DNA of 64,000 bases, from the sequence record MK373782.1; one strand, given 5' to 3'. The translations under genes and the position numbers were made by a program. Below the pieces are notes generated by a model, which was not told the DNA's origin, searched no databases, and saw nothing but the letters and a program-made list of their open reading frames with translations. Source of the DNA: Escherichia phage vB_EcoM_KAW3E185. Shown here piece after piece: positions 2,520 through 29,994 of this stretch. Position 1 is the stretch's first letter; each line of letters opens with the position of its first letter.

Positions 2520-3620
2520 TTACGCTGTGAAGATTTTATCCCACATCGCAACAACTGCATCTCGGTTATACTTCTTCCATACTGCTTCAGCACGTTTAAC
2601 TCGAGCTTCGTATGTGTCAGTGAATTCTAATACAGCTTTTGTGTAAAGCGCAACTACTTCTTTCTTAGGAGTAGAGGAATCAATTTCTACACGCACAGTA
2701 TCTGGGTCGTATTCAAATGTCGCATGAGGATAATCCTTAAAAACTAACTGGATTACAGGGACACCTTTAGAGATGGCTTCAATAGAACTATTCTCTACCG
2801 TACCTGTGTCAGGACACGTATTAATAAGTGCTTTAGCTGTTTTAAGGCGTTCCATGATTTCACTGTGTGGAGCATCAATAATAACAGGATATTTAGCCGG
2901 TGGTGCCCATTTGCTTGGACAGTATCCTACACCATTTTCGCCTAGTGCTTTAATCGCTTCAAGAGCAACATCAGTACGACGCATTTTAGTGTCATAACGT
3001 TGTGCACTAATAATCAGATCAGTCGCCGGAAGAACTTCAGGTTTCTCATTCAAACAAATAACCGGATAATCTTCGGTTTCAAACAACGGATTTGCTCGCC
3101 AATAATCATAATCAATTTTGTCAGTCAGACCTGAAGTCATATAACAATATTTGCGTTCAAATTCACGGAAGGCTTTAGTAGGAGCATAACTCTTACCACC
3201 GTTCTTACGAATTTGAATAGTCTGGTCCCAAATTTGAACAATGCCACGAGATACTGGTTCAAATGGTGTTGCCATAAAATTCTTATGAACTTTAGAGAGA
3301 CCTGCGTCTTTAATTGCCTGAACGGTTAGTTTAGTCGGTTCCATAGTAACAACAAAATCGTATTCATGGATGCCGGCTAGTTCAACAATCTTACGAGCCA
3401 TAGTATAACTCATACCTAGACTGAATTTAGTCAGATGACCAACAGGATGATGATTAACCTTCCAATCACCAAATGTGTCATTATCAAAACCGATATAATC
3501 AATATCGGCACCGATGGACACAAGATATTTCAACACATTTAAATGTACTGCTTCAAGACCACCTTGTACACGTTCTGGGTTAAATGGGACTGCACGAGAT
3601 GGGATAAACATAACTTTCAT
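2520..3620 (-). CDS. putative GT-B fold (GT4-like) glycosyltransferase, 366 aa
   Basis: N-terminal MKVMFIPSRAVPF...GGLEAVHLNVLKYL and C-terminal ...TGTVENSSIEAISKGVPVI resemble GT4 donor-binding motifs; occupies the slot where T4 has gene 60/mobA. Confidence 0.5.
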   Translation of the reverse strand: MKVMFIPSRAVPFNPERVQGGLEAVHLNVLKYLVSIGADIDYIGFDNDTFGDWKVNHHPVGHLTKFSLGMSYTMARKIVELAGIHEYDFVVTMEPTKLTVQAIKDAGLSKVHKNFMATPFEPVSRGIVQIWDQTIQIRKNGGKSYAPTKAFREFERKYCYMTSGLTDKIDYDYWRANPLFETEDYPVICLNEKPEVLPATDLIISAQRYDTKMRRTDVALEAIKALGENGVGYCPSKWAPPAKYPVIIDAPHSEIMERLKTAKALINTCPDTGTVENSSIEAISKGVPVIQLVFKDYPHATFEYDPDTVRVEIDSSTPKKEVVALYTKAVLEFTDTYEARVKRAEAVWKKYNRDAVVAMWDKIFTA

Positions 3621-5480: not shown

Positions 5481-5523
5481 GTTGTCTCCTCGTTATGAAG
5501 GTATTCTATCATCCGAAATCTAA

Positions 5524-5966: not shown

Positions 5967-5968
5967 AA

Positions 5969-6148: not shown

Positions 6149-6150
6149 TA

Positions 6151-6788: not shown

Positions 6789-6845
6789 AATATTCTCCTC
6801 TTGTTTTGATAGGTCTATAGTATCATAGACCATAGTTGTTGTACA

Positions 6846-7370: not shown

Positions 7371-7396
7371 ATTATTCTCCTCTGGTTGATATGGTT

Positions 7397-7425
7397 ATAA
7401 TATCAAAACCGGAGGAGAAGTAAAC
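7397..7425 (-). promoter_or_regulatory. sigma70-type early promoter (-35 GTTTAC, 17-nt spacer, -10 TATTAT)
   Basis: Consensus hexamers read on minus strand upstream of ORF 6846-7370; coordinates approximate. Confidence 0.45.
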
Positions 7426-7429
7426 AACT

Positions 7430-7849: not shown

Positions 7850-7858
7850 AATAATTCC

Positions 7859-8323
7859 TTAAGCTTTACGAGGAGACACATAGCGAGTGATTTCAGATTC
7901 TTTAACAACTCGGAAGTCACCTAAGAATACGATATTGTATAACTTTTCACCATCTTCAACCCATTGGTCGCTAATGAAGCCACACATAGTATCAGTTTTG
8001 CTTGGATAACCATATTCATCGATGAAGTCAAATTCTTTATCAGTCTGGAATTCAACACCTTTACACAAGGCCCATTTGAACTGTGTAGTAGGCTCAACGA
8101 TATCGCTTGAAGCAAAGTGGGCACTTACACGAGTTTCCAAGAATTTAGGACTTACATAGGCGAACTGAGTTTCAGTTTTTCCAGAACTAGGAATGATTCG
8201 AACTTTAACTTCTTTAATACGGCCCATGCCATTAGTACGAAGTCCTACTACTTCAACCAGCTTTCCTGCAGCTTTAGAACGAGACGCTGTCGATACACGC
8301 TTAATTTCACCAATAGTAATCAT
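7859..8323 (-). CDS. hypothetical protein, paralog B (154 aa)
   Basis: See paralog A; same conserved blocks. Confidence 0.55.
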   Translation of the reverse strand: MITIGEIKRVSTASRSKAAGKLVEVVGLRTNGMGRIKEVKVRIIPSSGKTETQFAYVSPKFLETRVSAHFASSDIVEPTTQFKWALCKGVEFQTDKEFDFIDEYGYPSKTDTMCGFISDQWVEDGEKLYNIVFLGDFRVVKESEITRYVSPRKA

Positions 8324-8351
8324 AATTTCTCTCTTTGTTTAAGTTGAATTC

Positions 8352-8381
8352 ATTATACTCCATCCATCCTTGGATGTACAA
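8352..8381 (-). promoter_or_regulatory. early promoter (-10 TATAAT; -35 TTGTAC-like) with ccaaggatgg-type spacer
   Basis: Near-copy of the promoter cassette at 8910, 52881 and 53901; coordinates approximate. Confidence 0.4.
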
Positions 8382-8383
8382 CA

Positions 8384-8878
8384 TTAATTAAGGATATTAA
8401 CCACAGCACTACGCGGAACTACACTAAAATCACCTGCATGAACTACGTTCAGAAGTTCAACACCGTCTTCAATCCACTGATCAGTTGCCCATCCATTTAC
8501 TGGACCAGCGAATGGGCGTCGAATTGAAACATATTTACACAACAAATCAGTAGGCTCAATAGGCTTAATCAGAGTACCGTACATACAAGCGATATCCATA
8601 TCAATACAGATGTCTTTAACGGGTTCTACTTCTTCAATCAACAATTCAAAGTCAGTGCTTGGAAGGGCGGTAGTAGAAATTGTACCGTGTGAATTTTTAA
8701 TTTCTAAGAATAACCAAGGGCCTTCAGCTTGTTTGATGAAGTTAACAATAGTGAAACTATTACCTTGAGTGGCACCTAAAATTTCACAAAACTTTTCATA
8801 AGCTCGCACTGAAGCACCGTACCAGTTGATTTGTTTTTCGTCTTTCAGGATGTAAGTAGCCGTAGTATTGATATTCAT
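8384..8878 (-). CDS. hypothetical protein, paralog C (164 aa; shares only the C-terminal module)
   Basis: C-terminus WATDQWIEDGVELLNVVHAGDFSVVP aligns with the paralog A/B C-termini. Confidence 0.5.
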   Translation of the reverse strand: MNINTTATYILKDEKQINWYGASVRAYEKFCEILGATQGNSFTIVNFIKQAEGPWLFLEIKNSHGTISTTALPSTDFELLIEEVEPVKDICIDMDIACMYGTLIKPIEPTDLLCKYVSIRRPFAGPVNGWATDQWIEDGVELLNVVHAGDFSVVPRSAVVNILN

Positions 8879-8909
8879 AATGTTTTTCCTGTTTGGTTAA
8901 GATAGAAAG

Positions 8910-8939
8910 ATTATACTCCAACCATCCTTGGTTGTAAAC
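8910..8939 (-). promoter_or_regulatory. early promoter (-35 GTTTAC, 18 nt, -10 TATAAT), cassette family A
   Basis: Minus strand reads GTTTACaaccaaggatggttggagTATAAT; coordinates approximate. Confidence 0.5.
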
Positions 8940-8944
8940 AGGTT

Positions 8945-9622
8945 TTATCGCTGTTTTACACTTAACGGGTCAGGATTCTCAGGGACATCTTCAAGGCCAA
9001 GCGCATAACGCTGAGCATATTTTAACATCAAAATATCTTTAGCACAATCATGAATACTATCATGGGCAACGAATCCTTTTAGCGTACCCATCGGTAATGG
9101 ACACATACTTAATCCTCGTGTCAACGAGTAAGCTTCGATTGCCGTACGAATATCGCGTTGAGCCCAGAATTTAACCGGTTCTAATTTATCAGTATCAATA
9201 TCTGGTTCAAGAACACCTTCATCACGATAGAGGTCACGAATCAAATCGACCAAGATCGGGAAGTCAAAGCTCATACCACGGCACCACATCTGTGATTTCC
9301 ATTGGTCAACTTTATTAGCTCGGCAATAGTCTAAAAAGATTTTAATGCCTTCAAGCGTAGTGACATCGTCTTCAGACGGAGCCAGGTTTTTACGCGCTTC
9401 TGCTGACTGTTCTTTCCACCATTTCATAGTGGATTTAGCGAAAACTCGCTTCCCTTTCTGAGAAGCTAAATTAAATTTAATTCGCTTACCTCGTTGAACA
9501 AGTTCTTCAAATGATTCAACAACTTCAGGGTCGGAATTATATGCAATAACCGCAAGGTCAATAACAGCCGCTTTTGATGTATTGCCGAATGTTTCAAAAT
9601 CTATAATAACATCAGTGCTCAT
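8945..9622 (-). CDS. dexA: exonuclease A (DnaQ-like 3'-5' exonuclease), 225 aa
   Basis: N-terminal IIDFETFG DEDD exonuclease motif; position next to dda as in T4. Confidence 0.75.
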   Translation of the reverse strand: MSTDVIIDFETFGNTSKAAVIDLAVIAYNSDPEVVESFEELVQRGKRIKFNLASQKGKRVFAKSTMKWWKEQSAEARKNLAPSEDDVTTLEGIKIFLDYCRANKVDQWKSQMWCRGMSFDFPILVDLIRDLYRDEGVLEPDIDTDKLEPVKFWAQRDIRTAIEAYSLTRGLSMCPLPMGTLKGFVAHDSIHDCAKDILMLKYAQRYALGLEDVPENPDPLSVKQR

Positions 9623-9631
9623 AATTTTCTC

Positions 9632-10945
9632 TCAAATAAAATGGACGTCAAAACGACCACGAGTTGTGCCGACATACAATAACTGTTTAGCTAATTCTGA
9701 ATCGGCATAATGGATACACGGTGTATAAACAAAGGCTGTGTCAACAGACATACCCTGGGCCTTATGGAAGGTTGATACAGGTAGTGCCTTCACCTTAGTG
9801 AACATACGTTTAGCATCCCAGAATTCGCTCCATGGAGCTTTACCGCCTTTATTCCAGAATTTGTATGTTTCTGCGGTCTTAGCCAAAAACAAATTGAATT
9901 TATAAAGCTCTTCTTCAGAAGAAATAACCTTTATATCTTCGCGGATGTATTCTTCATCATCCCCATATGTTTCTACTGTAAGATTCCAGTATCGTATCAT
10001 ATATTCGCCTGAAACACCACGTGCTTTAACGAATGTAGACGTTTCTACAGCATCTCGAATACGAACGAATTGCCCGTTATTGAAAAGCATTTCGGTCATA
10101 TTTTTGCCATCTAGTTTATATGTCTTAGTAAATGGCTCTTGTAGAACAATGACTTCGTCTTTAATAAATGGTTTTTCTGTTTCAAGAAGTTTTCGGCGAA
10201 TAATTGAATTCAACTTGTCCACCGACTTATTTGTGAATGCCATCATTCGATTTTCGAAAAGGTCTTCAGGAGTTTTAACGACATTAAAATAGTTCGTCAT
10301 ATACGATTTAAGGTCTGTATATCCGTGAACACCGTGTCCATCAACTACTTTATCGTAAATCCATTTGCCATTACGAATATCAGTCGCAACATCAATAATT
10401 GGTGCATTGCTACGTTTAACTTCTGTAAGGTTGCATTGCACGAAGTCTTTGTGAGTGAAGAAAGGACTTAGATACGCAGTTGATTCGCCTGGGTCTACCG
10501 GACGAATCTGGCATCGGTCGCCGATGCCAATTACTGTACACCATTTAGGGATACTAGCTAACATTATTTTAAACAGAGAACGGTCGCACATTGACGCTTC
10601 ATCAAATAACAGTACACGACACAAGGCTAAGTCGGGAACCTTTTTCTGTTCAAACAATACGTTTTCTTCGTATGTAGTTGGGTTGATTTTAAGAATGCTA
10701 TGAATAGTCGATGCTTCTTGGCCCGCAAGTTTGCTTAGAACCTTTTTAGCAGCATGTGTAGGGGCTGCTAAAATAATACCTGATTCTCCAGAAGAAATAA
10801 GGGCTTCAACGATGAATCTAGTAAGGGTTGTTTTACCTGTACCAGCGGGCCCGTTAATAGTTACGTGATGTTTCTTTTCTTTAATAGCGTTCATAACAAC
10901 GTTGAAGGCGTTTTTCTGGCCTTCAGTCAAATCATCAAATGTCAT
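9632..10945 (-). CDS. dda: Dda DNA helicase (SF1), 437 aa
   Basis: Walker A GPAGTGKTT; N-terminus MTFDDLTEGQKNAF matches T4 Dda as I recall it. Confidence 0.9.
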   Translation of the reverse strand: MTFDDLTEGQKNAFNVVMNAIKEKKHHVTINGPAGTGKTTLTRFIVEALISSGESGIILAAPTHAAKKVLSKLAGQEASTIHSILKINPTTYEENVLFEQKKVPDLALCRVLLFDEASMCDRSLFKIMLASIPKWCTVIGIGDRCQIRPVDPGESTAYLSPFFTHKDFVQCNLTEVKRSNAPIIDVATDIRNGKWIYDKVVDGHGVHGYTDLKSYMTNYFNVVKTPEDLFENRMMAFTNKSVDKLNSIIRRKLLETEKPFIKDEVIVLQEPFTKTYKLDGKNMTEMLFNNGQFVRIRDAVETSTFVKARGVSGEYMIRYWNLTVETYGDDEEYIREDIKVISSEEELYKFNLFLAKTAETYKFWNKGGKAPWSEFWDAKRMFTKVKALPVSTFHKAQGMSVDTAFVYTPCIHYADSELAKQLLYVGTTRGRFDVHFI

Positions 10946-10969
10946 CGTAAAGTCCCTGCAATTGGAATA

Positions 10970-11308
10970 CTAACAATACGGCCTGTGTCTAGGATTCGTT
11001 GATACAATCTTTGCGTCTCCGCATCTAGCAATACGGCCTGTGTCTAGGATTCGTTGATACAATCTTTGCGTCTCCGCATCTAGTTTAATGTGTTTCATTT
11101 CAAGCTTATTAAACCAGAACTTACGCGGAGTTTCGACCATTCTTAGAACTCCCATTTTTAAATCTGTTTTATACTGTGTTTTCAAAGTATCGAAAACTTT
11201 ATCTGCAATATCCTTTCTAAAAAATACTGCAGGACGATGCTCATCAAGTGGAACCGGGACAGTAAATCCTTCCATATCTCGATAAACTATTGCATATACA
11301 TAAACCAT
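10970..11308 (-). CDS. hypothetical protein (112 aa) with C-terminus altered by a 55-bp tandem duplication
   Basis: ORF upstream of dda; the last 20 codons are read from the second repeat copy in a shifted frame. Confidence 0.45.
   Translation of the reverse strand: MVYVYAIVYRDMEGFTVPVPLDEHRPAVFFRKDIADKVFDTLKTQYKTDLKMGVLRMVETPRKFWFNKLEMKHIKLDAETQRLYQRILDTGRIARCGDAKIVSTNPRHRPYC
10974..11083. repeat. perfect direct tandem repeat, 2 x 55 bp
   Basis: caatacggcctgtgtctaggattcgttgatacaatctttgcgtctccgcatctag occurs twice back to back. Confidence 0.9.
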
Positions 11309-11310
11309 AA

Positions 11311-12057
11311 TTAACCTTTAATCAGTTGGAATAATGATGCGCTAAGTGGTAAGCCACGTTTCAATTTTAATTTACCAATGAAACCAATCTTTTCAAAACG
11401 TTGCAGACCTTGGATAACTTTATCATATGTATCGAAAAGCGATTCAGCGTCAGTTAATTTAGTTTTAGTTTTCCAGTCAGAGCCTTTAAGAAGAACGTTG
11501 AGTTTAGTAAGTTCATGGCCTTCTGCTTGATGTGAGCCATTAATGCGTGCTTTCAAAGCAACAATTCTAAGTTTAGATTCGTTAGATAAAGGTTGATTTT
11601 TCATCATGTTCGCCATATGCTTAACACGATTTTCACGTTTTGCTCGGATTTTTAAAATAGTACCATAAACCTTTTTAATTTGGGCCCATTTCTTCTCGTC
11701 GAGATTAAGTTTCTCTACTTTACAGACAGAAGGATTAGCGATACGTCTTGCAATGGCATCACGTTTCTCAATAAGTTCTTCTAATGTTAAATCAGAACGA
11801 GCCGTGTTATATTTTTTCTTAACTGGGATAACATTACCTTTAATGTAGCCTATATCATTATTAAAACGTTCTAAGGATAATTTCTCACATTCAACAGAGT
11901 TATTAAAAGATTCACCTGAGTAAGCGCAGACCTTTTGATCAAGAATGTTTTTAAGGTAATTAAAGTCTAAGTTAAAATCCTTAGAGCGTCTCTTCGCAGA
12001 AGCTCTGGTGTGGTCAAGACGACGATTGATTTTGTTAATTTTATTATTTGATAACAT
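11311..12057 (-). CDS. hypothetical basic protein (248 aa) at the srd position
   Basis: ORF between the dda-upstream gene and modA; assignment positional only. Confidence 0.45.
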   Translation of the reverse strand: MLSNNKINKINRRLDHTRASAKRRSKDFNLDFNYLKNILDQKVCAYSGESFNNSVECEKLSLERFNNDIGYIKGNVIPVKKKYNTARSDLTLEELIEKRDAIARRIANPSVCKVEKLNLDEKKWAQIKKVYGTILKIRAKRENRVKHMANMMKNQPLSNESKLRIVALKARINGSHQAEGHELTKLNVLLKGSDWKTKTKLTDAESLFDTYDKVIQGLQRFEKIGFIGKLKLKRGLPLSASLFQLIKG

Positions 12058-12209
12058 AATATTTTCCTCTGTCTTACGGACGTTAGGTCATTTAGCTGAT
12101 AAGCTTATAATATCATGCCCTCAGGTAGTGTACACTCTTTTTTCGTAAAATGCTTTAATTTTTTATGTGTTATAATGGTTCTGAGTTCCATCCGGTTATT
12201 CCAATTCAG

Positions 12210-12818
12210 TCAGTAACTGACAATAGACAGATTCCAGATTGTATAACGTCCATCTTGAATAATAGAATCTACACGCAGTGTAGTCCCTATAGGGAGCATA
12301 AATTCACATTCGTCGGATATAAGTCTAGCATTAGACCGTCTTGTCGCTTCAGGGAAAGCTCCATTGAACTCACAAGATGGCGCAGCCAGAATCATGTTAA
12401 GCATATGTTCACGGAAGTTGAAAGCAAATGGTGCATCTTTGATGCAGAACATATTAAATGTTCCGTAAAAATTATACGAAGCAAAGTTACGTGCTACACC
12501 GAACACTGGGCTGAAGCTCATTACTCTGTCAAATTTAATAATACTACCAATGCCTTTATCATCAAGTGTGGCCATAGTTTTCTTAGAGATTCCACGATAC
12601 ATTGTCTCAGGAACAGAAGACGTCCAATTTCTACGAACGATTGAACTTAACTCCTGTTGAATACAGTCTGGCTTGTTTTCCATACACTGCCACAGGACAC
12701 TTTGTTCGTTATCGTTGAATTGACTATCAATTTCATACTGCAATTCATCTTGATATTCAGGGTTTTGAGCACGACGAACCATTTCTTCGATTTCACAGTC
12801 ATTATATGGCATGAACAT
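12210..12818 (-). CDS. modA: ADP-ribosyltransferase, ModA-like
   Basis: Paralog of the next ORF; Arg/Ser-Thr/ExE-type ART features; start chosen at Met6 with GAGGAG Shine-Dalgarno. Confidence 0.6.
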   Translation of the reverse strand: MFMPYNDCEIEEMVRRAQNPEYQDELQYEIDSQFNDNEQSVLWQCMENKPDCIQQELSSIVRRNWTSSVPETMYRGISKKTMATLDDKGIGSIIKFDRVMSFSPVFGVARNFASYNFYGTFNMFCIKDAPFAFNFREHMLNMILAAPSCEFNGAFPEATRRSNARLISDECEFMLPIGTTLRVDSIIQDGRYTIWNLSIVSY

Positions 12819-12847
12819 TTTATTTCTCCTCACGTTTCGATAAAGTA

Positions 12848-12877
12848 ATCATAACACCGTCCGTGGTGGTTGTAAAC
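12848..12877 (-). promoter_or_regulatory. early promoter (-35 GTTTAC, about 18 nt, -10 TATGAT)
   Basis: Hexamers upstream of modA, overlapping the modB stop; coordinates approximate. Confidence 0.4.
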
Positions 12878-13458
12878 TAAAAATTCAACATTTTCAAATG
12901 AATGATTTTGTATAATCGAGATAAAGGGTCATATTCTAAGTCTTCAATTTCCACAATCTCAAATCTAGAGATACCTGAAACCATGTACTCTTGTTCAGAT
13001 TCAATCATATCTAGGACGTCAACACGCTTTTCTTCCATAACATGCTTAGGGTTCTTTCCGGCGAGTACAATGTTAATCATGTTTTGGTAGTAATCAAAAA
13101 TGAATGGAGCATTCCTGAGACTAAGAATAGTGTACGTCTGATATTCCCATCTCCCAGAGAATTGACAAGCTGTACTGAAATCAGTTGTGAACGATGTTAC
13201 TCGTCCAGGAGACCAATGGCATCCAACAGAAAGAAGGGAAAGACGTTCTACTTCTTCTGGAGTTACACCACGGTAGAGTTCTACTGGTACTGTAGAAGTC
13301 ATATGCTTACGAACAAGATGGTCTAATTCATAGTGGAAATCCGGGTCTTCCTTAGAATCGGTGCAAGCCCAGAGAATGTTTTGTTCTTGGCGGGTGAATT
13401 TGCTATCAATCAGATTTGTTAGGTATTCACGTTCTTGAAGTTCAGATTGACATGTCAT
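12877..13458 (-). CDS. modB: ADP-ribosyltransferase, ModB-like
   Basis: LYRG...TSFT...EQEYMV (R-S-ExE ART motifs); start chosen at Met14 with GGAGG Shine-Dalgarno. Confidence 0.6.
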   Translation of the reverse strand: MTCQSELQEREYLTNLIDSKFTRQEQNILWACTDSKEDPDFHYELDHLVRKHMTSTVPVELYRGVTPEEVERLSLLSVGCHWSPGRVTSFTTDFSTACQFSGRWEYQTYTILSLRNAPFIFDYYQNMINIVLAGKNPKHVMEEKRVDVLDMIESEQEYMVSGISRFEIVEIEDLEYDPLSRLYKIIHLKMLNF

Positions 13459-15664: not shown

Positions 15665-16186
15665 TTAATAACCTCGGTCTTGACGAGCAAAGTTTTCAGC
15701 ATTCTTCAGATAATACAGTTTAAAGATTTCTTCAGCAGAAAGACCCAGACCTTGGAACATGTTCAGAACGAAGTGCAGAATATCAATCATTTCGAATTTA
15801 ATTTCGAGCTGGTCTTCAGGAGACAGTTCATCAATACGACGATTACGATATTCAGCATGTTGTGCTTTCCATGGCTTCCACACAGAGCTGGCAGCTTTTT
15901 CACCGTTGGACATACCACCAAGTGAAGTCAGCAGTTCACGGAATTCATCATCAATATAATCTTTCTGATTACGCAGCCAATCAACAACATCGCCAGCAGT
16001 AGCCAATTCATCAGGATGTTTGTTATGTTCAGGCTTGTCATTTGCCAGACGAACCTGTAAAGATTTCTGCATATCAAGCATTACCTGCAGTGGGTCTTTA
16101 TCTTCGTGAATCAGAGCATTAAAATAAGCTTCTTCTGCTTTATCAACACCAGAAATAAGTTGTGAACATTCGTTAAAGTGTGCCAT
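15665..16186 (-). CDS. 56: dCTP pyrophosphatase (MazG-like), gp56
   Basis: MAHFNEC...DPLQVMLDMQ...LYYLKNAENFARQDRGY matches T4 gp56 as I recall it; start chosen at Met6. Confidence 0.85.
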   Translation of the reverse strand: MAHFNECSQLISGVDKAEEAYFNALIHEDKDPLQVMLDMQKSLQVRLANDKPEHNKHPDELATAGDVVDWLRNQKDYIDDEFRELLTSLGGMSNGEKAASSVWKPWKAQHAEYRNRRIDELSPEDQLEIKFEMIDILHFVLNMFQGLGLSAEEIFKLYYLKNAENFARQDRGY

Positions 16187-16274
16187 TATTTTTCCTTTCA
16201 ATTCAGTATAAGAGAGTTAATTCTAACATTAATTTTATAAAGCGTAATAAATAATAGGTAACTAAGGAGATATT

Positions 16275-24259: not shown

Positions 24260-24808
24260 TTAACGAGCCCATTTGATAATTTCTGTAATCAAATAATTAC
24301 GTTCGCTTGCATTAAATCCTATAACTTTGTTAGCACCATCATGATTAAGTAATTGATACGTTTGGATTTTGTTATGAATTGCAAACTCTTCAAAATGTGA
24401 AATGACTGTATTAAAACCGAATGAAGACAAAGTAATAAGGTCGTCTTCAAAACTTTCAGTCATTTCGTTACGTGTTAAAATAATTGTGAACACATCATGG
24501 TTTTGGCAAAGACGAATATAATCCTGTTCATAAACGTCAAGAACCGAGTCCGCATCTTGTCGAATACGTCCATAAACCCAGTTACTAATATATCCACGGT
24601 CTAACAGATAAATCTTAGTAGGGTCTAAATAATTCAACATCGTTTCGAAACAACCAACTTCATTTCGAGACTTAACATCGAAACGTCCATCAACTGTTCG
24701 TTTAGGGAAATCAATCTTTACATATCTTTCACTAATTTCCATTATGTCATTAATGAAAGTTGTTTTACCAGCATTATCCGGGCCATCTACTAAAATAATT
24801 TTAGCCAT
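24260..24808 (-). CDS. P-loop nucleoside/nucleotide kinase-like protein (182 aa)
   Basis: Walker A GPDNAGKTT and LLDRGY motif typical of dNK/TMPK-family kinases; sits in the T4 beta-gt slot. Confidence 0.5.
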   Translation of the reverse strand: MAKIILVDGPDNAGKTTFINDIMEISERYVKIDFPKRTVDGRFDVKSRNEVGCFETMLNYLDPTKIYLLDRGYISNWVYGRIRQDADSVLDVYEQDYIRLCQNHDVFTIILTRNEMTESFEDDLITLSSFGFNTVISHFEEFAIHNKIQTYQLLNHDGANKVIGFNASERNYLITEIIKWAR

Positions 24809-24809
24809 T

Positions 24810-25709
24810 TTATTCCTCGATTACGACATCTTCATATTTAGGTATATTATACGGTGAAGAAATTAAAGCATTAAAATAGATGAACTCACCAAGACCTGGA
24901 TGAAATACTTCTTCAGGATTTTCGAAATATTGAATCTTCGGACGTCCTTTAAGAATTTGATAGTACTCAGTTTTAGTTGGTTTAAAAATTCGAATTAGCG
25001 CTTCTTCAGGATACTTATTTCTGTCAAAGCTATTATTTGGATCGGTTATATAAAGCGGTTGACCTAATTGAATTGCGCATTCAACAACTTGTTCAAAACG
25101 ATAGCATGGGTCACTAATTCGAAATGGATGAAAAATACCATCTAGATGAATAGGAGCCAAATCACCTACAAGACGCTGCATGATGGAAGGACGTATAACT
25201 TTCTGCGTTACGATAATCTTATTACCATCTGCACCAGCGTTAACCAGCACTTCTTTTTGACGTTCATTCAACACAGTAGTTTGAAGTGAACGATTAACCG
25301 ACAACATATCGGTTTTTAAGAATTCGTCAATATAAAAACGTGGTTTATTAGGGTCTGCAGTGATATTGAAATTGAATTCCACATCAAAAGCGCCGTCATA
25401 TCCAGTGATATCTGTGATTAGAAAATCACAATCATAATAAGCAATTAATGAATCAACCACAAATTCATTTTCAGACCAGAAATATTTACGAGTGTTATAC
25501 GCGTTATCTTTATACCATAATGGAACAAACTTAAATTCTGGAAAAAGACGTTCGCATTCTTTAATATCAGATGCATTACGTGGATATGTAATCACATCAC
25601 CCGGATTAGCACGGTGCAAATGAAGTTGGAAGTTGCCATCCTTAAGGATAGCATACTGTCCAGTTTCATAAGACCTCATACTCAAGATAGGTACGCGGAA
25701 AATAGCCAT
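24810..25709 (-). CDS. hypothetical protein (299 aa), candidate DNA-modification enzyme
   Basis: Occupies the beta-gt position between uvsX and 42; stop overlaps the gene 42 start; no recognisable motif. Confidence 0.5.
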   Translation of the reverse strand: MAIFRVPILSMRSYETGQYAILKDGNFQLHLHRANPGDVITYPRNASDIKECERLFPEFKFVPLWYKDNAYNTRKYFWSENEFVVDSLIAYYDCDFLITDITGYDGAFDVEFNFNITADPNKPRFYIDEFLKTDMLSVNRSLQTTVLNERQKEVLVNAGADGNKIIVTQKVIRPSIMQRLVGDLAPIHLDGIFHPFRISDPCYRFEQVVECAIQLGQPLYITDPNNSFDRNKYPEEALIRIFKPTKTEYYQILKGRPKIQYFENPEEVFHPGLGEFIYFNALISSPYNIPKYEDVVIEE

Positions 25710-26425
25710 TAGTCAAGGAATCCTTTAACATAATCAAAATCACGTTCAAACACATGGGCACTTACCATGGTATGAGTATAATCACCAACTTCTACACCGC
25801 ATTCGTTAGCGATATAATGAAGTAATTTTCCTTGGAGATAAAAATCCAACTGCATAACAACAGCGCAGTTCTGAGAACGCATATGACAGTGGGTATAAAG
25901 CTTACCATCACGGATATAATAAGTCACTGAGTCAGTACATGGATATTCAAGCGTTTCGTCTGAATCAAGCAAAGCCTGATCAGAACTTTCTAGAATTTGG
26001 AACACAACTCTTCGAGAGTTAGGCTTCTCTTTAAGTTCTTTTAGAAGAGCTGGTAATTGGGCCGCAATGCGAGGACCATAGAAAGTGTTGAAGTTCGCCG
26101 GCAAAACATCTGATTTTGGTTTAGAAATAAATTTAGCGACACTAGGATATGCCTTAAACGCTTCTTCTGCGTTGGTACCACCAGAAATCATAAACTTCCA
26201 GAAGTCTTCGGCGTATTCATAAGAGATGCGGTTAATACGCGGGTCGGTCATTTTGAATGATGATGGAGTGTCAACAACTACTGTCATAGACCCAATTTCA
26301 TTACAACGTCCAATACGAGAATCAGTTACGAATTCCGGGTTTTCTAAAATTTCACGATTGACTGCTTTAAATGCGGTTTGAAAATCTGCGGCTTTGATAT
26401 ATTTCATTGTGTTATGTTTTCCCAT
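25709..26425 (-). CDS. 42: ThyA-family deoxypyrimidylate hydroxymethylase (gp42-like, divergent), 238 aa
   Basis: ThyA-fold motifs PNSRR..., YPCTDSVTYYIRDGKL...HMRSQNCAVV, HVFERDF; gene 42 position and size. Confidence 0.7.
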   Translation of the reverse strand: MGKHNTMKYIKAADFQTAFKAVNREILENPEFVTDSRIGRCNEIGSMTVVVDTPSSFKMTDPRINRISYEYAEDFWKFMISGGTNAEEAFKAYPSVAKFISKPKSDVLPANFNTFYGPRIAAQLPALLKELKEKPNSRRVVFQILESSDQALLDSDETLEYPCTDSVTYYIRDGKLYTHCHMRSQNCAVVMQLDFYLQGKLLHYIANECGVEVGDYTHTMVSAHVFERDFDYVKGFLD

Positions 26426-26467: not shown

Positions 26468-26707
26468 TTATTTGAATTTCTTGACAATGTTGATATAACG
26501 TAAAGCTTCAGCACCGATACTTCCAAGAACACTATGAAGAAATGCATCAGCGTAGTATTCCAATTGAACAGGTTCTTTAATCACTTTAGCCGCTTTAGTT
26601 TCAAACAGGCCCATCAGGGCCCTTTTAAGAATTTGTTCGTTAGTGTTCAGTTTCATAGTCAAAATCTCTTCATTAAGTTGGTGGTTAAAAGTTTTTCTAG
26701 AAATCAT
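26468..26707 (-). CDS. small hypothetical protein (79 aa)
   Basis: ORF on gene strand, overlaps next gene by 4 nt. Confidence 0.45.
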   Translation of the reverse strand: MISRKTFNHQLNEEILTMKLNTNEQILKRALMGLFETKAAKVIKEPVQLEYYADAFLHSVLGSIGAEALRYINIVKKFK

Positions 26708-27876
26708 TCCGGGTACCTCAAAGCGTCATCAGAGTTAGTTATATCAATAATAGATATAGAGTTTTCTGCTAACCCGTTTTTAGATAATTGACGTTTATAA
26801 TATCTTTCACAATATGTACACGTCGTCCCGCAGATTTCATTAGCACAATCGAAATCTGGATGTCTGAACCACCTTTTTTCTAAAAAGCCATCTAACAAAG
26901 AGGTTTCAATATTTACTGTATGTGAAAACTCAGTTTCGTTTTCAAGAGTGAAAATAGTCTCTAAAGGCTTCCACAGTTCTAACAAATTACCTTCAAACTT
27001 TTCAGAAGCGTATGCTTCAAGAACTTTCAAAATGTAGTCTGTGCTACCTGTACGTCCTGAAACTTTGAATTGAGTGATACCAATATCATTATAAAGTTTC
27101 AAATCTTGAGGACGAACAAAACGAGTTCTCAACCAGTTAAATGGGTCTGTATCACGAGCTTTAATACAGTGCTGCATAGGATATCCGTTTAAGGATTTAG
27201 CATCATCAGCTGTAACATCAGTACTATGGAAAATATAGCAAGAGTCACGATAGCTACAATGTGTTGTATACCCTTTACCAGCATTAGAACAGAACTCATT
27301 TACAAGAACTTCAAATATTATATTGTTCTTATTGCAAAACTCTGCTGCACGCTTCAGGAAAGAAACTGAACGGTTCTTATGAATTCCGCAACAGACCTTT
27401 TTGATGTTATATTGGTCATGCAAGTATTTGATTTGAGTTACAGCATCGACATGTAGAATTGTTGAAACTTCAATCTCAATATCTTTATTGACTTCACGAA
27501 CAATTTCCATAACAACAGGGTTAGCGATAGTAATACGCCATACGCCTATTGACCAAAGATACTGAACATAATCCTGAATAGCTTTCTTCTTCCACTCAAC
27601 TAGTTCTCTTTTTGAACCAGGATTTATCGTGTTGAGTGTATAGTTAAAGCAAATACCTAATTCGTTACAACGTTTAACGTAGTCTTCTAACATTTTTTTG
27701 TCAACGTCAGGAAGCCTAAAATCAGGTCTGGCTGCTACAAAAGCCATTTCTCTTGTAGAGCCGTATACTTCATTTATCAAGCTATTAGGATAAGTTTTAT
27801 TGAGCTCTACGATTTTATCAAGAAGAGCTAAATCAAAATTCGTTCCGATTTTAAAAGTATTCATTTTTTTTTGCAT
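26704..27876 (-). CDS. Cys-rich enzyme-like protein of unknown function (390 aa)
   Basis: Clustered Cys (CSYRDSC, CANEICGTTCTYC); part of the cassette between genes 42 and 43. Confidence 0.5.
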   Translation of the reverse strand: MQKKMNTFKIGTNFDLALLDKIVELNKTYPNSLINEVYGSTREMAFVAARPDFRLPDVDKKMLEDYVKRCNELGICFNYTLNTINPGSKRELVEWKKKAIQDYVQYLWSIGVWRITIANPVVMEIVREVNKDIEIEVSTILHVDAVTQIKYLHDQYNIKKVCCGIHKNRSVSFLKRAAEFCNKNNIIFEVLVNEFCSNAGKGYTTHCSYRDSCYIFHSTDVTADDAKSLNGYPMQHCIKARDTDPFNWLRTRFVRPQDLKLYNDIGITQFKVSGRTGSTDYILKVLEAYASEKFEGNLLELWKPLETIFTLENETEFSHTVNIETSLLDGFLEKRWFRHPDFDCANEICGTTCTYCERYYKRQLSKNGLAENSISIIDITNSDDALRYPE

Positions 27877-27922: not shown

Positions 27923-28324
27923 TTATAGATTCGGTTTATATGATTTAAATGTTTCGAATTCGCCTTTATTCATAAGAGCTTTGAATTCGTCAGGACGCAT
28001 AGCTTTGTCGTCGATAATCCAATCATATACTGGTTTATGTGTTAGCAAATTATGGTACTTCAAGCCAATGTTTGCCAAGTTCTGAATCAGACTTGGGAGA
28101 ATGTCAATTGCTATACGACCAGGACCTACTGACTTCATACCACGAGCAGTGTAAAGCGTTATGGTATGCCCTGCATCATACAGGGCATTAATGGCAGACA
28201 CCATTTCGACGTCTGGTTTGAAGTTCACGTAATCACGATTGTTATTCCATTCCGTGATGCAATCATCGACATCAAAACAAAGATTAAGCATGTTTTCTAC
28301 ACGGTGCATTAGATTCGTTCCCAT
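27923..28324 (-). CDS. small DxD-motif protein, possibly HAD-like phosphatase (133 aa)
   Basis: N-terminal LCFDVDDCIT resembles HAD motif I; assignment tentative because the protein is short for a HAD core. Confidence 0.35.
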   Translation of the reverse strand: MGTNLMHRVENMLNLCFDVDDCITEWNNNRDYVNFKPDVEMVSAINALYDAGHTITLYTARGMKSVGPGRIAIDILPSLIQNLANIGLKYHNLLTHKPVYDWIIDDKAMRPDEFKALMNKGEFETFKSYKPNL

Positions 28325-29994
28325 TGATGAGTGATATCGCCACCGATTGGACGATAAGAAACACCAGTTTCTTTATCAGTTAGTACCCATTTACCAGGAT
28401 TTTTTGTAATCAGAGTAGCCGTTACAGGTTCTGCTACGTCATAACTAATAGAGCCGTCCTGAAGTACACGGCCCATGTTACGTAATTGCTTAGTCAGAAG
28501 TTCCATACCTTTATAATATGCGGCTACCGCTTTAAGTGGATTATTCTTGAAATAACCACCTAATGCAATCCAGATAATTGCCACTGCCAAATGATGATAC
28601 TCGTTAAACGAACTCATCTTTCCATATTTGTAAACTAATGGATTGATGTTAATAGTCACATTACAAGTTGTTTCATCAATAGTAAACTGTCCCCAGGTCG
28701 GATTAGCATTGAATTCATCATAACCTGAAACAGCGTAAAGCACTTTAGCTTCATCATACAATTTTGGCCCGTAAATCTTGGTTTCGCCAAAATATCCACG
28801 AGGGTCGATAAACTTGACTTCGCCGTTATCAGTAATCATAGTATTACTGAAGTTCGGGTCGCCATGAATAACAGAGTACTGTCCCTGAGAACGGTTATGA
28901 TAACGAATAAGGTGTTCTAAAGCTTGTTTCAGCATTGGCTTCAGACGTCCAATCTTAGTGTAGTTCACATGTGTGATTTTACCAAATGAATCAATCAATG
29001 GTTGAATGCTTTCACAACGATCAATAACTTTCGTATAGAATTCTTTAGTGAAATCACGACGAACAGTTTCAGGACTTACAAAATAAGTGTCTGTGCTGAA
29101 TTTCAGTGCATCTAAAATTGCATCAACAATTTGTGGACGAGCAAGACTTGATTTGGATTTAATATATTCAAATGCCGGCTTACCTTTAATGCGTTCCATT
29201 TCAAAGTTATTTTCATTAACAGAAACTAACTGAGGAACTGAATCCGATTTCACTTTAAGATACCATGAAATCTCATCTTTCTGAAGAGCTCGACCCTGTT
29301 CGGTTAATGCGAATTTAGTTACAGTTTCTTCACCAATTTCAACTGCATTAAAACTACGATTAAGTTCACGAACTTCATGAGCCTTTTCAAGTTTAGGCAT
29401 ATCACCTAAATCAATTAGATTCATAAGCTCTGATTTATTGAATGCGCTGCCGTAAAGGAATTCTACGAAATCACGTCCTTTGCAGTATTCATGAATTTCC
29501 TCATCAGTAGAACCCATGTAGAATTCCCAGTCTTTGAACTGGTAAATTCCCACAACATTACCGCCTGTTTCACCTACATTAGTGATATTTTCACCATCGA
29601 AATTATACCGACATTCATCACCCTTAACATAGATTGCGTTAACATTCCAAGACCATGAACCAAAATCGGGAATAATATCACACCAGTTAACAATTACGTT
29701 ATGGCCGTCTAAATCTTTGTGTAATTTAGCAAGAGCATAAGCAGAACCGTATGCTTCATCAACTGTACGAATAGTCACATTGAACCCTTCTTGCTCACAA
29801 TAAGCTCGAACAGTTTCAGCAAATTTTGAATGAACTACTACGATAATTTCATCTGCGCCAAGGTCAGAATAAATTGTATACAAATTGCTCAGAATAGTGT
29901 CTTGTTTATAGTTAACAAGCACCTTAGGAATATGATGCGTTATTGGATATAAACGAGTTGCCAGTCCAGCACCAAGAATAACAGCTTTTTTCAT
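28309..29994 (-). CDS. bifunctional sugar-1-phosphate nucleotidylyltransferase / APH-fold sugar kinase (561 aa)
   Basis: N-terminal KKAVILGAGLATRLYPIT...PKVL nucleotidyltransferase signature; C-terminal HGDPNFSN...FIDPRG kinase motifs. Confidence 0.6.
   Translation of the reverse strand: MKKAVILGAGLATRLYPITHHIPKVLVNYKQDTILSNLYTIYSDLGADEIIVVVHSKFAETVRAYCEQEGFNVTIRTVDEAYGSAYALAKLHKDLDGHNVIVNWCDIIPDFGSWSWNVNAIYVKGDECRYNFDGENITNVGETGGNVVGIYQFKDWEFYMGSTDEEIHEYCKGRDFVEFLYGSAFNKSELMNLIDLGDMPKLEKAHEVRELNRSFNAVEIGEETVTKFALTEQGRALQKDEISWYLKVKSDSVPQLVSVNENNFEMERIKGKPAFEYIKSKSSLARPQIVDAILDALKFSTDTYFVSPETVRRDFTKEFYTKVIDRCESIQPLIDSFGKITHVNYTKIGRLKPMLKQALEHLIRYHNRSQGQYSVIHGDPNFSNTMITDNGEVKFIDPRGYFGETKIYGPKLYDEAKVLYAVSGYDEFNANPTWGQFTIDETTCNVTININPLVYKYGKMSSFNEYHHLAVAIIWIALGGYFKNNPLKAVAAYYKGMELLTKQLRNMGRVLQDGSISYDVAEPVTATLITKNPGKWVLTDKETGVSYRPIGGDITHQWERI

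What the first reader, a model, noticed from the sequence alone, without database searches (positions are those of the whole stretch)
25709..26425. Gene 42-position hydroxymethylase is strongly divergent from the T4 enzyme
The 238-aa protein has the ThyA-fold catalytic blocks (PNSRR, PCTDSVTYYIRDGKL, HMRSQNCAVV, HVFERDF) but, compared with T4 gp42 as I recall it, only these blocks are conserved. Neighbouring replication proteins are much better conserved, so the divergence is local. It may reflect co-evolution with a different downstream sugar transferase, or a different pyrimidine substrate.
Basis: partly seen in the sequence, partly recalled or inferred. Interest (0 to 1): 0.45.

Follow-up and report, generated by a model that had tools for sequence, protein, structure and literature searches.

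The report
Flavin-dependent dCMP 5-hydroxylase, already described
The gene in the "gene 42" slot of this RB69-like phage is not a drifted T4 hydroxymethylase; it is the recently described thymidylate-synthase-fold enzyme that uses a flavin and O2 to make 5-hydroxy-dCMP, the base the phage then coats with arabinose.

Summary
Window 25709-26425 (minus strand) encodes a 238-aa ThyA-fold protein that is only 25% identical to T4 gp42. The flanking replication proteins are 62-85% identical to their T4 counterparts.

The window is a Mosigvirus (RB69-like) genome. The protein is 98.7% identical to RB69 gp48 and 97% identical to phage HY126 AfhB, whose crystal structures (PDB 9IQC and 9IQU, released July 2025) contain dCMP, one with FAD. 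Papers from 2025-2026 show that this enzyme is a flavin- and O2-dependent dCMP 5-hydroxylase ("5hodCMP synthase"), not a folate-dependent hydroxymethylase. The substrate is still dCMP.

The window protein carries every diagnostic residue: Cys163, Asp194 (N177D), Glu160 (L143E) and Asn186 (D169N). It lacks the folate-site residues that T4 gp42 keeps. The surrounding genes are the known arabinosyl-5-hydroxycytosine cluster. The finding is therefore real but already known.

A side lead may be new. Two genes upstream lies an iron-sulfur U32-family protein. In seven related phage lineages it is followed by a chorismate mutase, and in one metagenomic phage contig by a DAHP synthase. It was found only in the lineages examined whose hosts are facultative anaerobes. 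I propose it is an O2-independent, prephenate-dependent back-up pyrimidine hydroxylase. This is untested.

The parts
25709..26425 (-). dCMP 5-hydroxylase / 5hodCMP synthase. This is the ortholog of RB69 gp48 and HY126 AfhB, a ThyA-fold flavin-dependent monooxygenase, and is the finding itself.
   Evidence: It is 98.7% identical to RB69ORF048c and 97% identical to PDB 9IQC and 9IQU. The diagnostic residues C163, E160, N186 and D194 are present. The AF2 model has pLDDT 88.8 and TM 0.94 to 9IQC.
24810..25709 (-). Putative DNA arabinosyltransferase 1 (RB69 gp46:47). It is one intact 299-aa ORF here.
   Evidence: It occupies the same position as RB69p046 and RB69p047. PMC13326640 says the RB69 split is a sequencing error and models the product as a glycosyltransferase. 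It has no Pfam or NCBIfam hit.
24260..24808 (-). Thymidylate-kinase-like nucleotide kinase (RB69 gp45). Its role in the pathway is not established.
   Evidence: It is syntenic with RB69p045. There is a weak dTMP kinase P-loop hit. Structure-based assignment comes from PMC13326640 Table 1.
26468..26707 (-). 79-aa ORF (RB69ORF049c) of unknown function. In seven related phage lineages this slot holds a type II chorismate mutase.
   Evidence: It has no Pfam or NCBIfam hit. It is 15-22% identical to the chorismate mutase ORFs of the other phages. Those ORFs score 32.8-46.8 bits to PF01817 against a cut-off of 27.
26704..27876 (-). U32-family iron-sulfur protein (RB69 gp50). Function not yet shown. 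Proposed here to be an O2-independent, prephenate-dependent hydroxylase.
   Evidence: It matches PF01136 at 42.2 bits against a cut-off of 22.4. Ten Cys are invariant across 52 homologs. C207, C213 and C237 align with the U32 cluster cysteines of UbiU, TrhP and RlhA. All 221 phage records with a homolog are at 80% identity or more. AF2 pLDDT is 92.3 and the best PDB match is the U32 protein 5D88.
27923..28324 (-). HAD-type sugar phosphatase (RB69 gp51; analogous to HY126 AfhF).
   Evidence: It matches TIGR01689 capsule biosynthesis phosphatase at 49.3 bits. It is syntenic with RB69p051. The role comes from PMC13326640.
28309..29994 (-). Bifunctional sugar kinase and UDP-arabinose pyrophosphorylase (RB69 gp52:53; analogous to HY126 AfhE). 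It is one intact 561-aa ORF here.
   Evidence: There is an N-terminal NTP_transferase domain (PF00483, 39 bits) and weak C-terminal kinase-like hits (NCBIfam). The role and the RB69 sequencing-error split come from PMC13326640.
30176..30811 (-). D-arabinose-5-phosphate isomerase (RB69 gp55).
   Evidence: It matches TIGR00393 KpsF/GutQ at 110.7 bits and KdsD at 105 bits. It is syntenic with RB69p055.
2520..3620 (-). Putative DNA arabinosyltransferase 2 (RB69 gp3).
   Evidence: It is 99% identical to RB69p003. The role is assigned from structure models in PMC13326640 Table 1.
15665..16201 (-). gp56 dCTPase, which supplies dCMP. The true start is probably the ATG five codons into the listed ORF.
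   Evidence: It is 99% identical to RB69p028 over 173 aa.

Best explanation
The ORF encodes the Mosigvirus dCMP 5-hydroxylase (5hodCMP synthase; RB69 gp48, HY126 AfhB).

Shown in the literature for near-identical proteins: the enzyme binds a flavin (FMN or FAD). It converts dCMP to 5-hydroxy-dCMP. The oxygen atom comes from O2.

Inferred mechanism: as in all ThyA-family enzymes, Cys163 adds to C6 of the pyrimidine. Asp194 pairs with the cytosine N3/N4 edge. The activated C5 then attacks a flavin-C4a-hydroperoxide, taking the place of the methylene-tetrahydrofolate iminium ion. Elimination of the cysteine releases 5-hydroxy-dCMP.

Pathway: gp56 dCTPase supplies dCMP. The gp1-type dNMP kinase (outside this window) and host NDP kinase make 5-hydroxy-dCTP. 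The phage polymerase incorporates it in place of dCTP. After replication, two arabinosyltransferases add one or two arabinose units to the 5-OH. The UDP-arabinose they use is made by the isomerase, kinase/pyrophosphorylase and phosphatase genes next door. The modified DNA resists restriction enzymes.
For: Identity: the protein is 98.7% identical to RB69ORF048c. phmmer against PDB 9IQC and 9IQU gives E 4e-160 and 9e-157. Foldseek of the AF2 model puts 9IQC first ('Monooxygenase dependent on riboflavin with dCMP and FAD') and 9IQU second ('phage HY126 dCMP hydroxylase-AfhB with substrate dCMP'), at TM 0.94 and 0.88.

Biochemistry of RB69 gp48 (PMC13326640): expression with the dNMP kinase puts 5-hydroxy-dC into E. 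coli plasmid DNA. 18O2 labels the product. The purified protein is yellow and releases an FMN-like flavin. D169N is diagnostic, and nine further D169N homologs all made 5hodC.

Residues: the window protein has C163 (=C146), R138/R139, R183/S184, E160 (L143E), D194 (N177D) and N186 (D169N). At positions where T4 gp42 keeps folate-site residues (E60, W82, D171, G175) it has F75, A97, N186 and V190. N186, D194, E160 and C163 are invariant in 64 homologs down to 52% identity.

Context: the complete arabinosyl-5hoC gene set is present in RB69 order. The window has no second ThyA-family gene and no beta-glucosyltransferase.
Against: No assay was done on this exact allele, which differs from the crystallised HY126 protein and from RB69 gp48 at a few positions. 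The Cys-addition and flavin-hydroperoxide steps are my inference from ThyA-family and flavin monooxygenase chemistry; I could not read He et al. 2026 to check its proposed mechanism. The flavin species is described inconsistently: FMN-like in PMC13326640, but FAD and 'riboflavin' in the PDB title. The source of reducing equivalents for the flavin is unknown. The N-terminal part of my alignment to ThyA (E58 and W80 equivalents) rests on about 20% identity and could be shifted.
Confidence: 0.93

Rival explanations
1. It is a true ortholog of T4 gp42 (a folate-dependent dCMP hydroxymethylase) that has simply evolved fast, perhaps co-evolving with a new sugar transferase.
For: It occupies the same genomic slot between uvsX and gene 43. 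It shares the ThyA fold, the catalytic Cys and the cytosine-specifying Asp with T4 gp42. Many GenBank records label it 'dCMP hydroxymethylase'.
Against: It is 25% identical to T4 gp42 and scores no better than against E. coli ThyA. T4 gp42 structures are absent from the top 50 Foldseek hits and the top 60 phmmer PDB hits, while MilA and thymidylate synthases are present. The folate-site residues are replaced. The near-identical RB69 and HY126 enzymes make 5-hydroxy-dCMP with flavin and O2, and Mosigvirus DNA carries sugar on a 5-O ether, not on a hydroxymethyl group.
Confidence: 0.03
2. It acts on a different pyrimidine, for example as a dUMP hydroxymethylase or hydroxylase, or as a thymidylate synthase. 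This is the first reader's second alternative and matches the common 'thymidylate synthase' annotation.
For: Pfam and NCBIfam match only thymidylate synthase models. Many records name it thymidylate synthase.
Against: The position equivalent to E. coli N177, which selects uracil, is Asp (D194), as in dCMP-specific T4 gp42 and MilA, and it is invariant in 64 homologs. The HY126 structures contain dCMP. The NCBIfam thymidylate synthase scores are far below the curated cut-offs, for example 50 bits against 108.
Confidence: 0.02
3. The ThyA-like hydroxylase is not the only route to 5-hydroxy-pyrimidine in this phage. The U32 iron-sulfur protein at 26704-27876 provides an O2-independent, prephenate-dependent route. 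This reading adds to the best explanation and does not replace it; see the section on the most novel reading.
For: See, and PMC10990095.
Against: No biochemical data exist. The window itself has no recognisable chorismate mutase. The host correlation is confounded by phage phylogeny. PMC13326640 suggests 'sugar or heterocycle reductase' instead.
Confidence: 0.4

Closest known systems
Phage HY126 AfhB (PDB 9IQC, 9IQU, 9IR2; He et al., Nat Chem Biol 2026) and RB69 gp48 '5hodCMP synthase' (Lee et al., NAR 2026, PMC13326640)
   Same: Same length (238 aa), 97-98.7% identity, same genomic position, and the same diagnostic residues (C146, L143E, D169N and N177D equivalents). The window protein is an allele of the same gene.
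   Different: A handful of substitutions only, for example T17S, E31Q, N85D, E87K, S95N and V107A relative to the crystallised sequence. None is at a diagnostic position.
Acinetobacter phage DLP3 gp80 / DLP1 ADLP1_078 and other D169N ThyA homologs (Rhizobium RL38J1 and P9VFCI, Tenacibaculum PTm5, Shewanella Thanatos)
   Same: Same enzyme family and signature. The DLP1, PTm5 and P9VFCI proteins are 70%, 39% and 34% identical. The gene sits next to glycosyltransferase and NDP-sugar genes.
   Different: The downstream sugars differ: tri-arabinose in DLP3 and galactose-glucose in RL38J1. The clusters from aerobic hosts that I examined lack the U32 gene.
T4 gp42 dCMP hydroxymethylase
   Same: ThyA fold, catalytic Cys (C148), cytosine-specifying Asp (D179), an acidic residue at the L143 position, dCMP substrate, and the genomic slot.
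   Different: 25% identity. T4 gp42 keeps the folate-site residues E60, W82, D171 and G175, uses methylene-THF and water, and makes a CH2OH group. The window protein has F75, A97, N186 and V190, plus an invariant inserted block K102-R119. Its near-identical relatives use flavin and O2 to make an OH group.
MilA CMP 5-hydroxymethylase (PDB 5JNH, 5B6D) and bacterial ThyA
   Same: These are the best non-self structural matches: MilA at TM about 0.85 and 24% identity, and thymidylate synthases at TM 0.70-0.77.
   Different: They are folate-dependent one-carbon transferases. ThyA has N177 and L143 and acts on dUMP.
U32 O2-independent hydroxylases RlhA, TrhP and UbiU/UbiV (closest known relatives of the neighbouring gene, not of the finding itself)
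   Same: Pfam U32 domain. The cysteines aligned with UbiU C169, C176 and C193 are conserved. There is a genomic link to the prephenate supply. RlhA makes 5-hydroxycytidine in rRNA (PMC5727448).
   Different: About 19-22% identity. The fourth canonical Cys is not aligned. There is an extra C-terminal CX4CX3CX2C motif. It is phage-encoded and sits in deoxynucleotide and DNA-modification contexts. No substrate is known.

Membership tests
[quoted passage not shown] | Thymidylate-synthase fold | tested here: met
   PF00303 at 56.9 bits. The AF2 model has pLDDT 88.8 and TM 0.94 to 9IQC.
[quoted passage not shown] | Asn at the position of E. coli ThyA Asp169 (D169N), proposed as the diagnostic signature in PMC13326640 | tested here: met
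   N186 aligns with D169. It is invariant in 64 homologs. T4 gp42 and ThyA have Asp at this position.
[quoted passage not shown] | Catalytic Cys (C146), a cytosine-specifying Asp (N177D) and an acidic residue at L143 | tested here: met
   C163, D194 and E160 are present and all are invariant in alignment A3.
[quoted passage not shown] | Close sequence relationship to biochemically and structurally characterised members | tested here: met
   98.7% to RB69 gp48 and 97% to HY126 AfhB structures 9IQC and 9IQU.
[quoted passage not shown] | Genomic association with dCTPase, NDP-sugar synthesis and DNA glycosyltransferase genes | tested here: met
   All are present in the window in RB69 order. The gp1-type dNMP kinase lies outside the window.
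[quoted passage not shown] | Binds flavin and converts dCMP to 5-hydroxy-dCMP using O2 | not testable with these tools
   Shown for RB69 gp48 and reported for HY126 AfhB. Assumed for this allele.
T4-type dCMP hydroxymethylase (gp42) | Orthology-level similarity to T4 gp42 | tested here: not met
   25% identity, 53 bits, no better than E. coli ThyA at 57 bits. T4 gp42 structures are not among the top PDB hits.
T4-type dCMP hydroxymethylase (gp42) | Conserved folate-site residues (T4 E60, W82, D171, G175 = E. coli E58, W80, D169, G173) | tested here: not met
   The window has F75, A97, N186 and V190 at these positions. Placement of the first two rests on a low-identity part of the alignment.
T4-type dCMP hydroxymethylase (gp42) | Catalytic Cys148 and Asp179 | tested here: met
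   C163 and D194. These features are shared by both families and so do not discriminate.
T4-type dCMP hydroxymethylase (gp42) | Product is 5-hydroxymethyl-dCMP, and the phage DNA carries hmC-linked sugar | not testable with these tools
   The literature on RB69 and Mosigvirus NP reports 5-O-linked arabinose and corrects the earlier ara-hmC assignment.
Thymidylate synthase ThyA (dUMP methylase) | Asn177 (uracil specificity), Leu143, and a folate-closing C-terminus | tested here: not met
   The window has D194 and E160, and the protein ends about 40 residues before the ThyA C-terminus. NCBIfam thymidylate synthase scores are far below cut-off.
U32 prephenate-dependent O2-independent hydroxylases (RlhA, TrhP, UbiU/V). 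This applies to the neighbouring ORF 26704-27876. | U32 domain with the Fe-S cluster cysteine motif | tested here: inconclusive
   PF01136 at 42.2 bits. Three of the four canonical Cys align (C207, C213, C237) and the fourth does not. Ten Cys are invariant in the phage subfamily. UbiU C176, needed for cluster binding, aligns with C213.
U32 prephenate-dependent O2-independent hydroxylases (RlhA, TrhP, UbiU/V). This applies to the neighbouring ORF 26704-27876. | Functional link to prephenate | tested here: inconclusive
   A chorismate mutase is adjacent in 7 related lineages, and a DAHP synthase is adjacent in one metagenomic phage contig. There is no recognisable chorismate mutase in this window.
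U32 prephenate-dependent O2-independent hydroxylases (RlhA, TrhP, UbiU/V). This applies to the neighbouring ORF 26704-27876. | Catalyses or is required for an O2-independent hydroxylation | not testable with these tools
   No data were found in the searchable literature.

The most novel reading that the evidence does not exclude
The O2-requiring ThyA-like dCMP hydroxylase may be backed up by a second, O2-independent pyrimidine C5-hydroxylase: the U32 iron-sulfur protein two genes upstream (window 26704-27876, RB69 gp50). Like RlhA, TrhP and UbiU/V, it would take its oxygen atom from prephenate. This would let these gut phages replace all cytosine even under anoxia.

Support:
- The gene is more conserved than the ThyA-like hydroxylase across genera (80% or more, against 68-82%).
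- It is followed by a chorismate mutase in seven lineages, and the U32-mutase pair sits at a different place in the cluster in Shewanella phage Thanatos-2.
- A distant homolog sits next to a DAHP synthase. Others sit next to dCMP deaminase, deoxynucleoside kinase, dUTPase, DNA glycosyltransferase and UDP-galactopyranose mutase genes, with no ThyA homolog within 6-7 kb.
- No homolog was detected in the aerobic-host lineages examined (Acinetobacter phage DLP1, Pseudomonas phage PspYZU05) or in the Tenacibaculum and Rhizobium phages that carry the ThyA-like hydroxylase.

The readable literature lists the protein only as a 'sugar or heterocycle reductase'.
Probability: 0.4. Interest if true: 0.75.

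Novelty: already known. Interest (0 to 1): 0.3.

Why it matters
For the finding itself, it shows that sequence reading alone can flag a gene whose oddity reflects a real change of chemistry. A folate-dependent one-carbon transferase fold has been converted into a flavin monooxygenase that makes 5-hydroxycytosine, the anchor for arabinosylated phage DNA. That DNA evades restriction enzymes and changes sensitivity to other defence systems. This has been published since 2025, so the value here is correct annotation: most GenBank records still call the gene 'thymidylate synthase' or 'dCMP hydroxymethylase'.

The side lead would matter more. If the adjacent U32 protein is a prephenate-dependent nucleotide or DNA hydroxylase, it would be the first U32 hydroxylase acting in DNA precursor metabolism. 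It would explain how an O2-dependent base-replacement pathway can work in the anoxic gut. It would also give a compact, highly expressed phage enzyme for the long-sought in vitro reconstitution of U32 hydroxylation.

Tried and rejected
1. Fast-diverged T4 gp42 ortholog: rejected.
2. A second T4-type gp42, a thymidylate synthase or a beta-glucosyltransferase elsewhere in the window: none found by tblastn at E <= 1. RB69 as a whole has only one place matching this protein.
3. The 79-aa ORF 26468-26707 as a diverged chorismate mutase: no Pfam or NCBIfam hit even at E <= 10. It is only 15-22% identical to the phage chorismate mutases. No frame of that region and no other part of the window matches them. 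The one weak hit, at 58986-59153 on the + strand, is antisense to a 165-aa ORF and was judged spurious. The ORF's function is left unknown.
4. The U32 protein as part of UDP-arabinose synthesis, as some GenBank records say: disfavoured. The Acinetobacter DLP-type clusters carry the sugar-pathway genes but no U32, a related phage (DLP3) makes tri-arabinosyl DNA from such a cluster, and HY126 AfhE/AfhF are reported to make UDP-arabinose from arabinose-5-phosphate.
5. He et al. 2026 and Mahler et al. 2025 could not be read because they are not held. I therefore cannot exclude that they already discuss the U32 gene.
The PDB sequence search with the U32 protein found nothing.
It was redone with alignment A3.
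8. One literature search was wasted on the ambiguous term 'Aat'.
9. A group I intron in the split nrdD: none at Rfam gathering score.
Full report
**1. What is at the coordinates**

Window 25709-26425 on the minus strand is an ATG-initiated ORF of 238 aa. Its only Pfam hit is thymidylate synthase: PF00303, 56.9 bits, residues 122-235. All NCBIfam thymidylate synthase models score far below their curated cut-offs.

**2.

- BLASTP against T4 gp42, taken from NC_000866, gives 54/218 identities (25%).
- The surrounding replication proteins are 62-85% identical to T4: UvsX 68%, gp41 85%, gp43 62%, gp44 78%.
- Searched against the whole 64-kb window, T4 gp42 and E. coli ThyA each hit only this ORF, at 53.1 and 57.4 bits. 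The protein is no closer to T4 gp42 than to a bacterial thymidylate synthase.
- No beta-glucosyltransferase homolog is present.

**3. What the window is**

The region is 98-99% identical in DNA to about 150 Mosigvirus (RB69-like) genomes. The best match is Shigella phage JK36 at 99.2%. Gene coordinates up to about 5 kb match the RB69 reference exactly.

Between uvsX and gene 43, T4 has segA, beta-gt, 42, imm and imm.1. The window, like RB69, instead has:
- a kinase-like gene;
- a 299-aa putative glycosyltransferase;
- the ThyA homolog;
- a 79-aa ORF;
- a U32-family gene;
- a HAD phosphatase;
- a 561-aa nucleotidyltransferase-kinase fusion;
- an arabinose-5-phosphate isomerase.

The difference from T4 is therefore a cassette replacement, not point divergence of one gene.

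**4. Identity of the protein**

The protein is 98.7% identical to RB69ORF048c. A sequence search of the PDB finds 9IQC/9IR2 and 9IQU at E 4e-160 and 9e-157. The next hits are ordinary thymidylate synthases and MilA at about 1e-11 to 1e-12.

I built an AlphaFold2 model from 64 homologs (pLDDT 88.8). Foldseek gives these top matches:

| Rank | Entry | Title | Score |
|---|---|---|---|
| 1 | 9IQC | "Monooxygenase dependent on riboflavin with dCMP and FAD" (released 2025-07-16) | 97% identity, TM 0.94 |
| 2 | 9IQU | "phage HY126 dCMP hydroxylase-AfhB with substrate dCMP" | TM 0.88 |
| next | MilA | CMP hydroxymethylase | 24% identity |

T4 gp42 structures are not in the top 50.

**5. What the literature shows for this enzyme**

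Lee et al., NAR 2026 (PMC13326640) report the following:
- RB69 and Acinetobacter phage DLP3 DNA has all cytosine replaced by mono- or poly-arabinosylated 5-hydroxycytosine, with the sugar on an ether oxygen at C5.
- RB69 gp48 plus the phage dNMP kinase puts 5-hydroxy-dC into E. coli DNA.
- 18O2 labels the product.
- The purified protein is yellow and releases an FMN-like flavin.
- D169N (E. coli ThyA numbering) is a diagnostic signature. Nine further D169N homologs all made 5hodC.

They cite He et al., Nat Chem Biol 2026, for the HY126 crystal structure and in vitro reconstitution, and Mahler et al., Cell Host Microbe 2025, for ara-5hoC in Serratia, E. coli and Acinetobacter phages. I could not read either paper. 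An independent study of Mosigvirus NP confirms 5-ara-dC and notes that the earlier "arabinosyl-hmC" assignment for RB69 was wrong.

**6. Residue-level test on the window protein**

I aligned it with RB69 gp48, DLP1, PTm5, P9VFCI, T4 gp42 and E. coli ThyA.
- C163 = C146 (nucleophile).
- R138/R139 and R183/S184 = the phosphate-binding residues.
- D194 = N177D (cytosine specificity, as in T4 D179).
- E160 = L143E.
- N186 = D169N.

At four positions T4 gp42 keeps the ThyA folate or catalytic-site residues (E60, W82, D171, G175). The window protein has F75, A97, N186 and V190 there. The first two of these placements are in a low-identity part of the alignment.

In 64 homologs down to 52% identity, N186, D194, E160 and C163 are invariant. 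So is an inserted block, K102-P103...L108-P109-x-N-F-N-T-F-Y-G-P-R119, that ThyA and gp42 lack. In the model this block has lower confidence (pLDDT 59-70). I infer, but did not show, that it forms a mobile lid over the flavin site.

**7. Mechanism**

Shown in the literature: dCMP is converted to 5-hydroxy-dCMP, a flavin is bound, and the oxygen comes from O2.

Inferred by me: Cys163 adds to C6, and the C5 carbanion equivalent attacks a flavin-C4a-hydroperoxide in place of a folate iminium ion. Beta-elimination then releases the product.

Upstream, gp56 dCTPase (99% identical to RB69p028) supplies dCMP. Downstream, the product is phosphorylated and incorporated by the polymerase. It is then arabinosylated by the products of 24810-25709 and 2520-3620, using UDP-arabinose from the isomerase, AfhE-like and AfhF-like genes.

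**8.

The link to a different sugar transferase is real. But the enzyme is a hydroxylase on a separate superfamily branch, the substrate is still dCMP, and the cofactor has changed. Novelty: already known (structures released July 2025; papers 2025-2026).

**9. Side lead: the U32 gene (26704-27876)**

The protein matches Pfam U32 at 42 bits. PMC13326640 lists it only as "sugar or heterocycle reductase" and does not mention U32, prephenate or chorismate; "anaerobic" appears only in the methods for the 18O2 experiment. HY126's GenBank record calls it hypothetical.

*Distribution.*
- tblastn finds homologs in 221 phage records, all at 80% identity or more. The ten commonest organism names, covering 209 of the 221 records, are all Enterobacterales. 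Shewanella phage Thanatos-2 is also among the hits.
- Acinetobacter phages are not among those ten names, although Acinetobacter phages such as DLP1, AbTZA1 and AM101 carry the ThyA-like hydroxylase at 68-70% identity.
- The cluster of Acinetobacter phage DLP1 has no U32 gene.
- The cluster of Pseudomonas phage PspYZU05 has none either.
- No U32 gene is annotated within 4 kb of the hydroxylase gene in Tenacibaculum phage PTm5 or Rhizobium phage P9VFCI.
- That the hosts with U32-bearing phages are facultative anaerobes and Acinetobacter is a strict aerobe is from my own knowledge, not a tool result.

*Link to prephenate.*
- The ORF immediately after the U32 gene is a type II chorismate mutase, above the Pfam cut-off, in Winklervirus LC53, Kagamiyamavirus EcS1, Kanagawavirus CIP9 and PEi26, Tegunavirus TG1, Bragavirus Pm5461 and Shewanella Thanatos-2.
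- In Thanatos-2 the U32-mutase pair sits at a different place in the cluster, which suggests the two genes travel together.
- In one metagenomic phage contig, the gene after a 54%-identical U32 homolog is a DAHP synthase (237 bits, against 63 for KDO8P synthase).

*Other contexts.* Other homologs lie next to dCMP deaminase, NT5C, deoxynucleoside kinase, dUTPase, a TAGT-like glycosyltransferase and UDP-galactopyranose mutase. None of these loci has a ThyA homolog within 6-7 kb.

*Iron-sulfur features.* Ten cysteines are invariant in 52 homologs, including a C-terminal CX4CX3CX2C. C207, C213 and C237 align with the cluster cysteines of UbiU, TrhP and RlhA. UbiU C176, which is needed for Fe-S binding, corresponds to C213.

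*Background.* U32 proteins RlhA (5-hydroxycytidine in 23S rRNA), TrhP and UbiU/V mediate O2-independent hydroxylations. Prephenate, the product of chorismate mutase, is the oxygen donor for UbiU/V and is predicted to be so for the others (PMC10990095, PMC6599085, PMC5727448). [quoted passage not shown]

*Hypothesis and caveats.* I propose that the U32 protein is an O2-independent, prephenate-dependent route to 5-hydroxy-pyrimidine nucleotides. The caveats are:
- There is no biochemistry.
- The host correlation is confounded by phage phylogeny.
- In this window the chorismate-mutase slot holds a 79-aa ORF with no detectable mutase signature, and Marfavirus has no ORF there at all. The host's own PheA and TyrA would have to supply prephenate.
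- The two key papers I could not read may already address this gene.

**10. Scores**

The given finding is real, correctly located and biologically striking, but fully explained by recent literature: interest 0.3, novelty "already known". For the U32 reading I estimate probability 0.4 and interest 0.75 if true.

Noticed in passing
window 26704-27876 (-); related loci L007, L008, L019-L023, L009-L014: The U32-family iron-sulfur protein in the DNA-modification cluster has homologs in 221 phage records, all at 80% identity or more. The ten commonest organism names are all Enterobacterales, and Shewanella phage Thanatos-2 is also a hit. No homolog was seen in the aerobic-host phages examined that carry the same ThyA-like hydroxylase. 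In seven lineages it is followed by a chorismate mutase, and in one metagenomic phage contig by a DAHP synthase. It may be an O2-independent, prephenate-dependent hydroxylase.
   Followed up: partly
window 26468-26707 (-): This 79-aa ORF (RB69ORF049c) overlaps the U32 stop codon by 4 nt. It has the same length and the same junction as the 79-aa chorismate mutases of phages CIP9 and PEi26, but shows no detectable similarity to them or to any Pfam or NCBIfam family. It is either a replaced or an unrecognisably diverged gene.
   Followed up: partly
window 24810-25709 (-) and 28309-29994 (-): Both genes are single intact ORFs here (299 aa and 561 aa). The RB69 reference record splits each into two (ORF046/047 and ORF052/053). 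This fits the published statement that the RB69 splits are sequencing errors.
   Followed up: yes
window 46481-49343 (-): [quoted passage not shown] A GIY-YIG/NUMOD1 homing-endonuclease ORF (47787-48557) lies between them, and a NUMOD3 endonuclease ORF (45658-46488) lies just downstream. No Rfam group I intron was found at gathering score, so it is unclear whether this is an undetected intron or a gene split by a free-standing endonuclease.
   Followed up: partly
L014 (metagenomic phage contig, Logan SRR33454321), 4777-13179: A U32 homolog (50% identical) is flanked by a Gly_transf_sug glycosyltransferase, a TAGT-like glycosyltransferase, a dUTPase/dCTP-deaminase-family gene and a UDP-galactopyranose mutase. 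No thymidylate-synthase homolog lies within 7 kb. This looks like a base-glycosylation cluster in which the U32 protein could be the only hydroxylase.
   Followed up: no
L009, L012 and L013 (metagenomic contigs, one of 466 kb): The U32 homolog lies directly after a dCMP-deaminase-family gene (with a 4-nt overlap in L009). Both sit beside a DNA polymerase III alpha gene; in L012/L013 a polymerase fragment is fused to a UDG domain, and in L009 a separate UDG gene precedes it. SSB also lies nearby. This is a recurring replication and nucleotide-metabolism context for the U32 subfamily.
   Followed up: no
window 25709-26425 and public records: Most GenBank and RefSeq records annotate this gene as 'thymidylate synthase', 'dCMP hydroxymethylase' or 'hypothetical protein'. 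None of the listed records uses the experimentally supported name, dCMP 5-hydroxylase / 5hodCMP synthase.
   Followed up: yes
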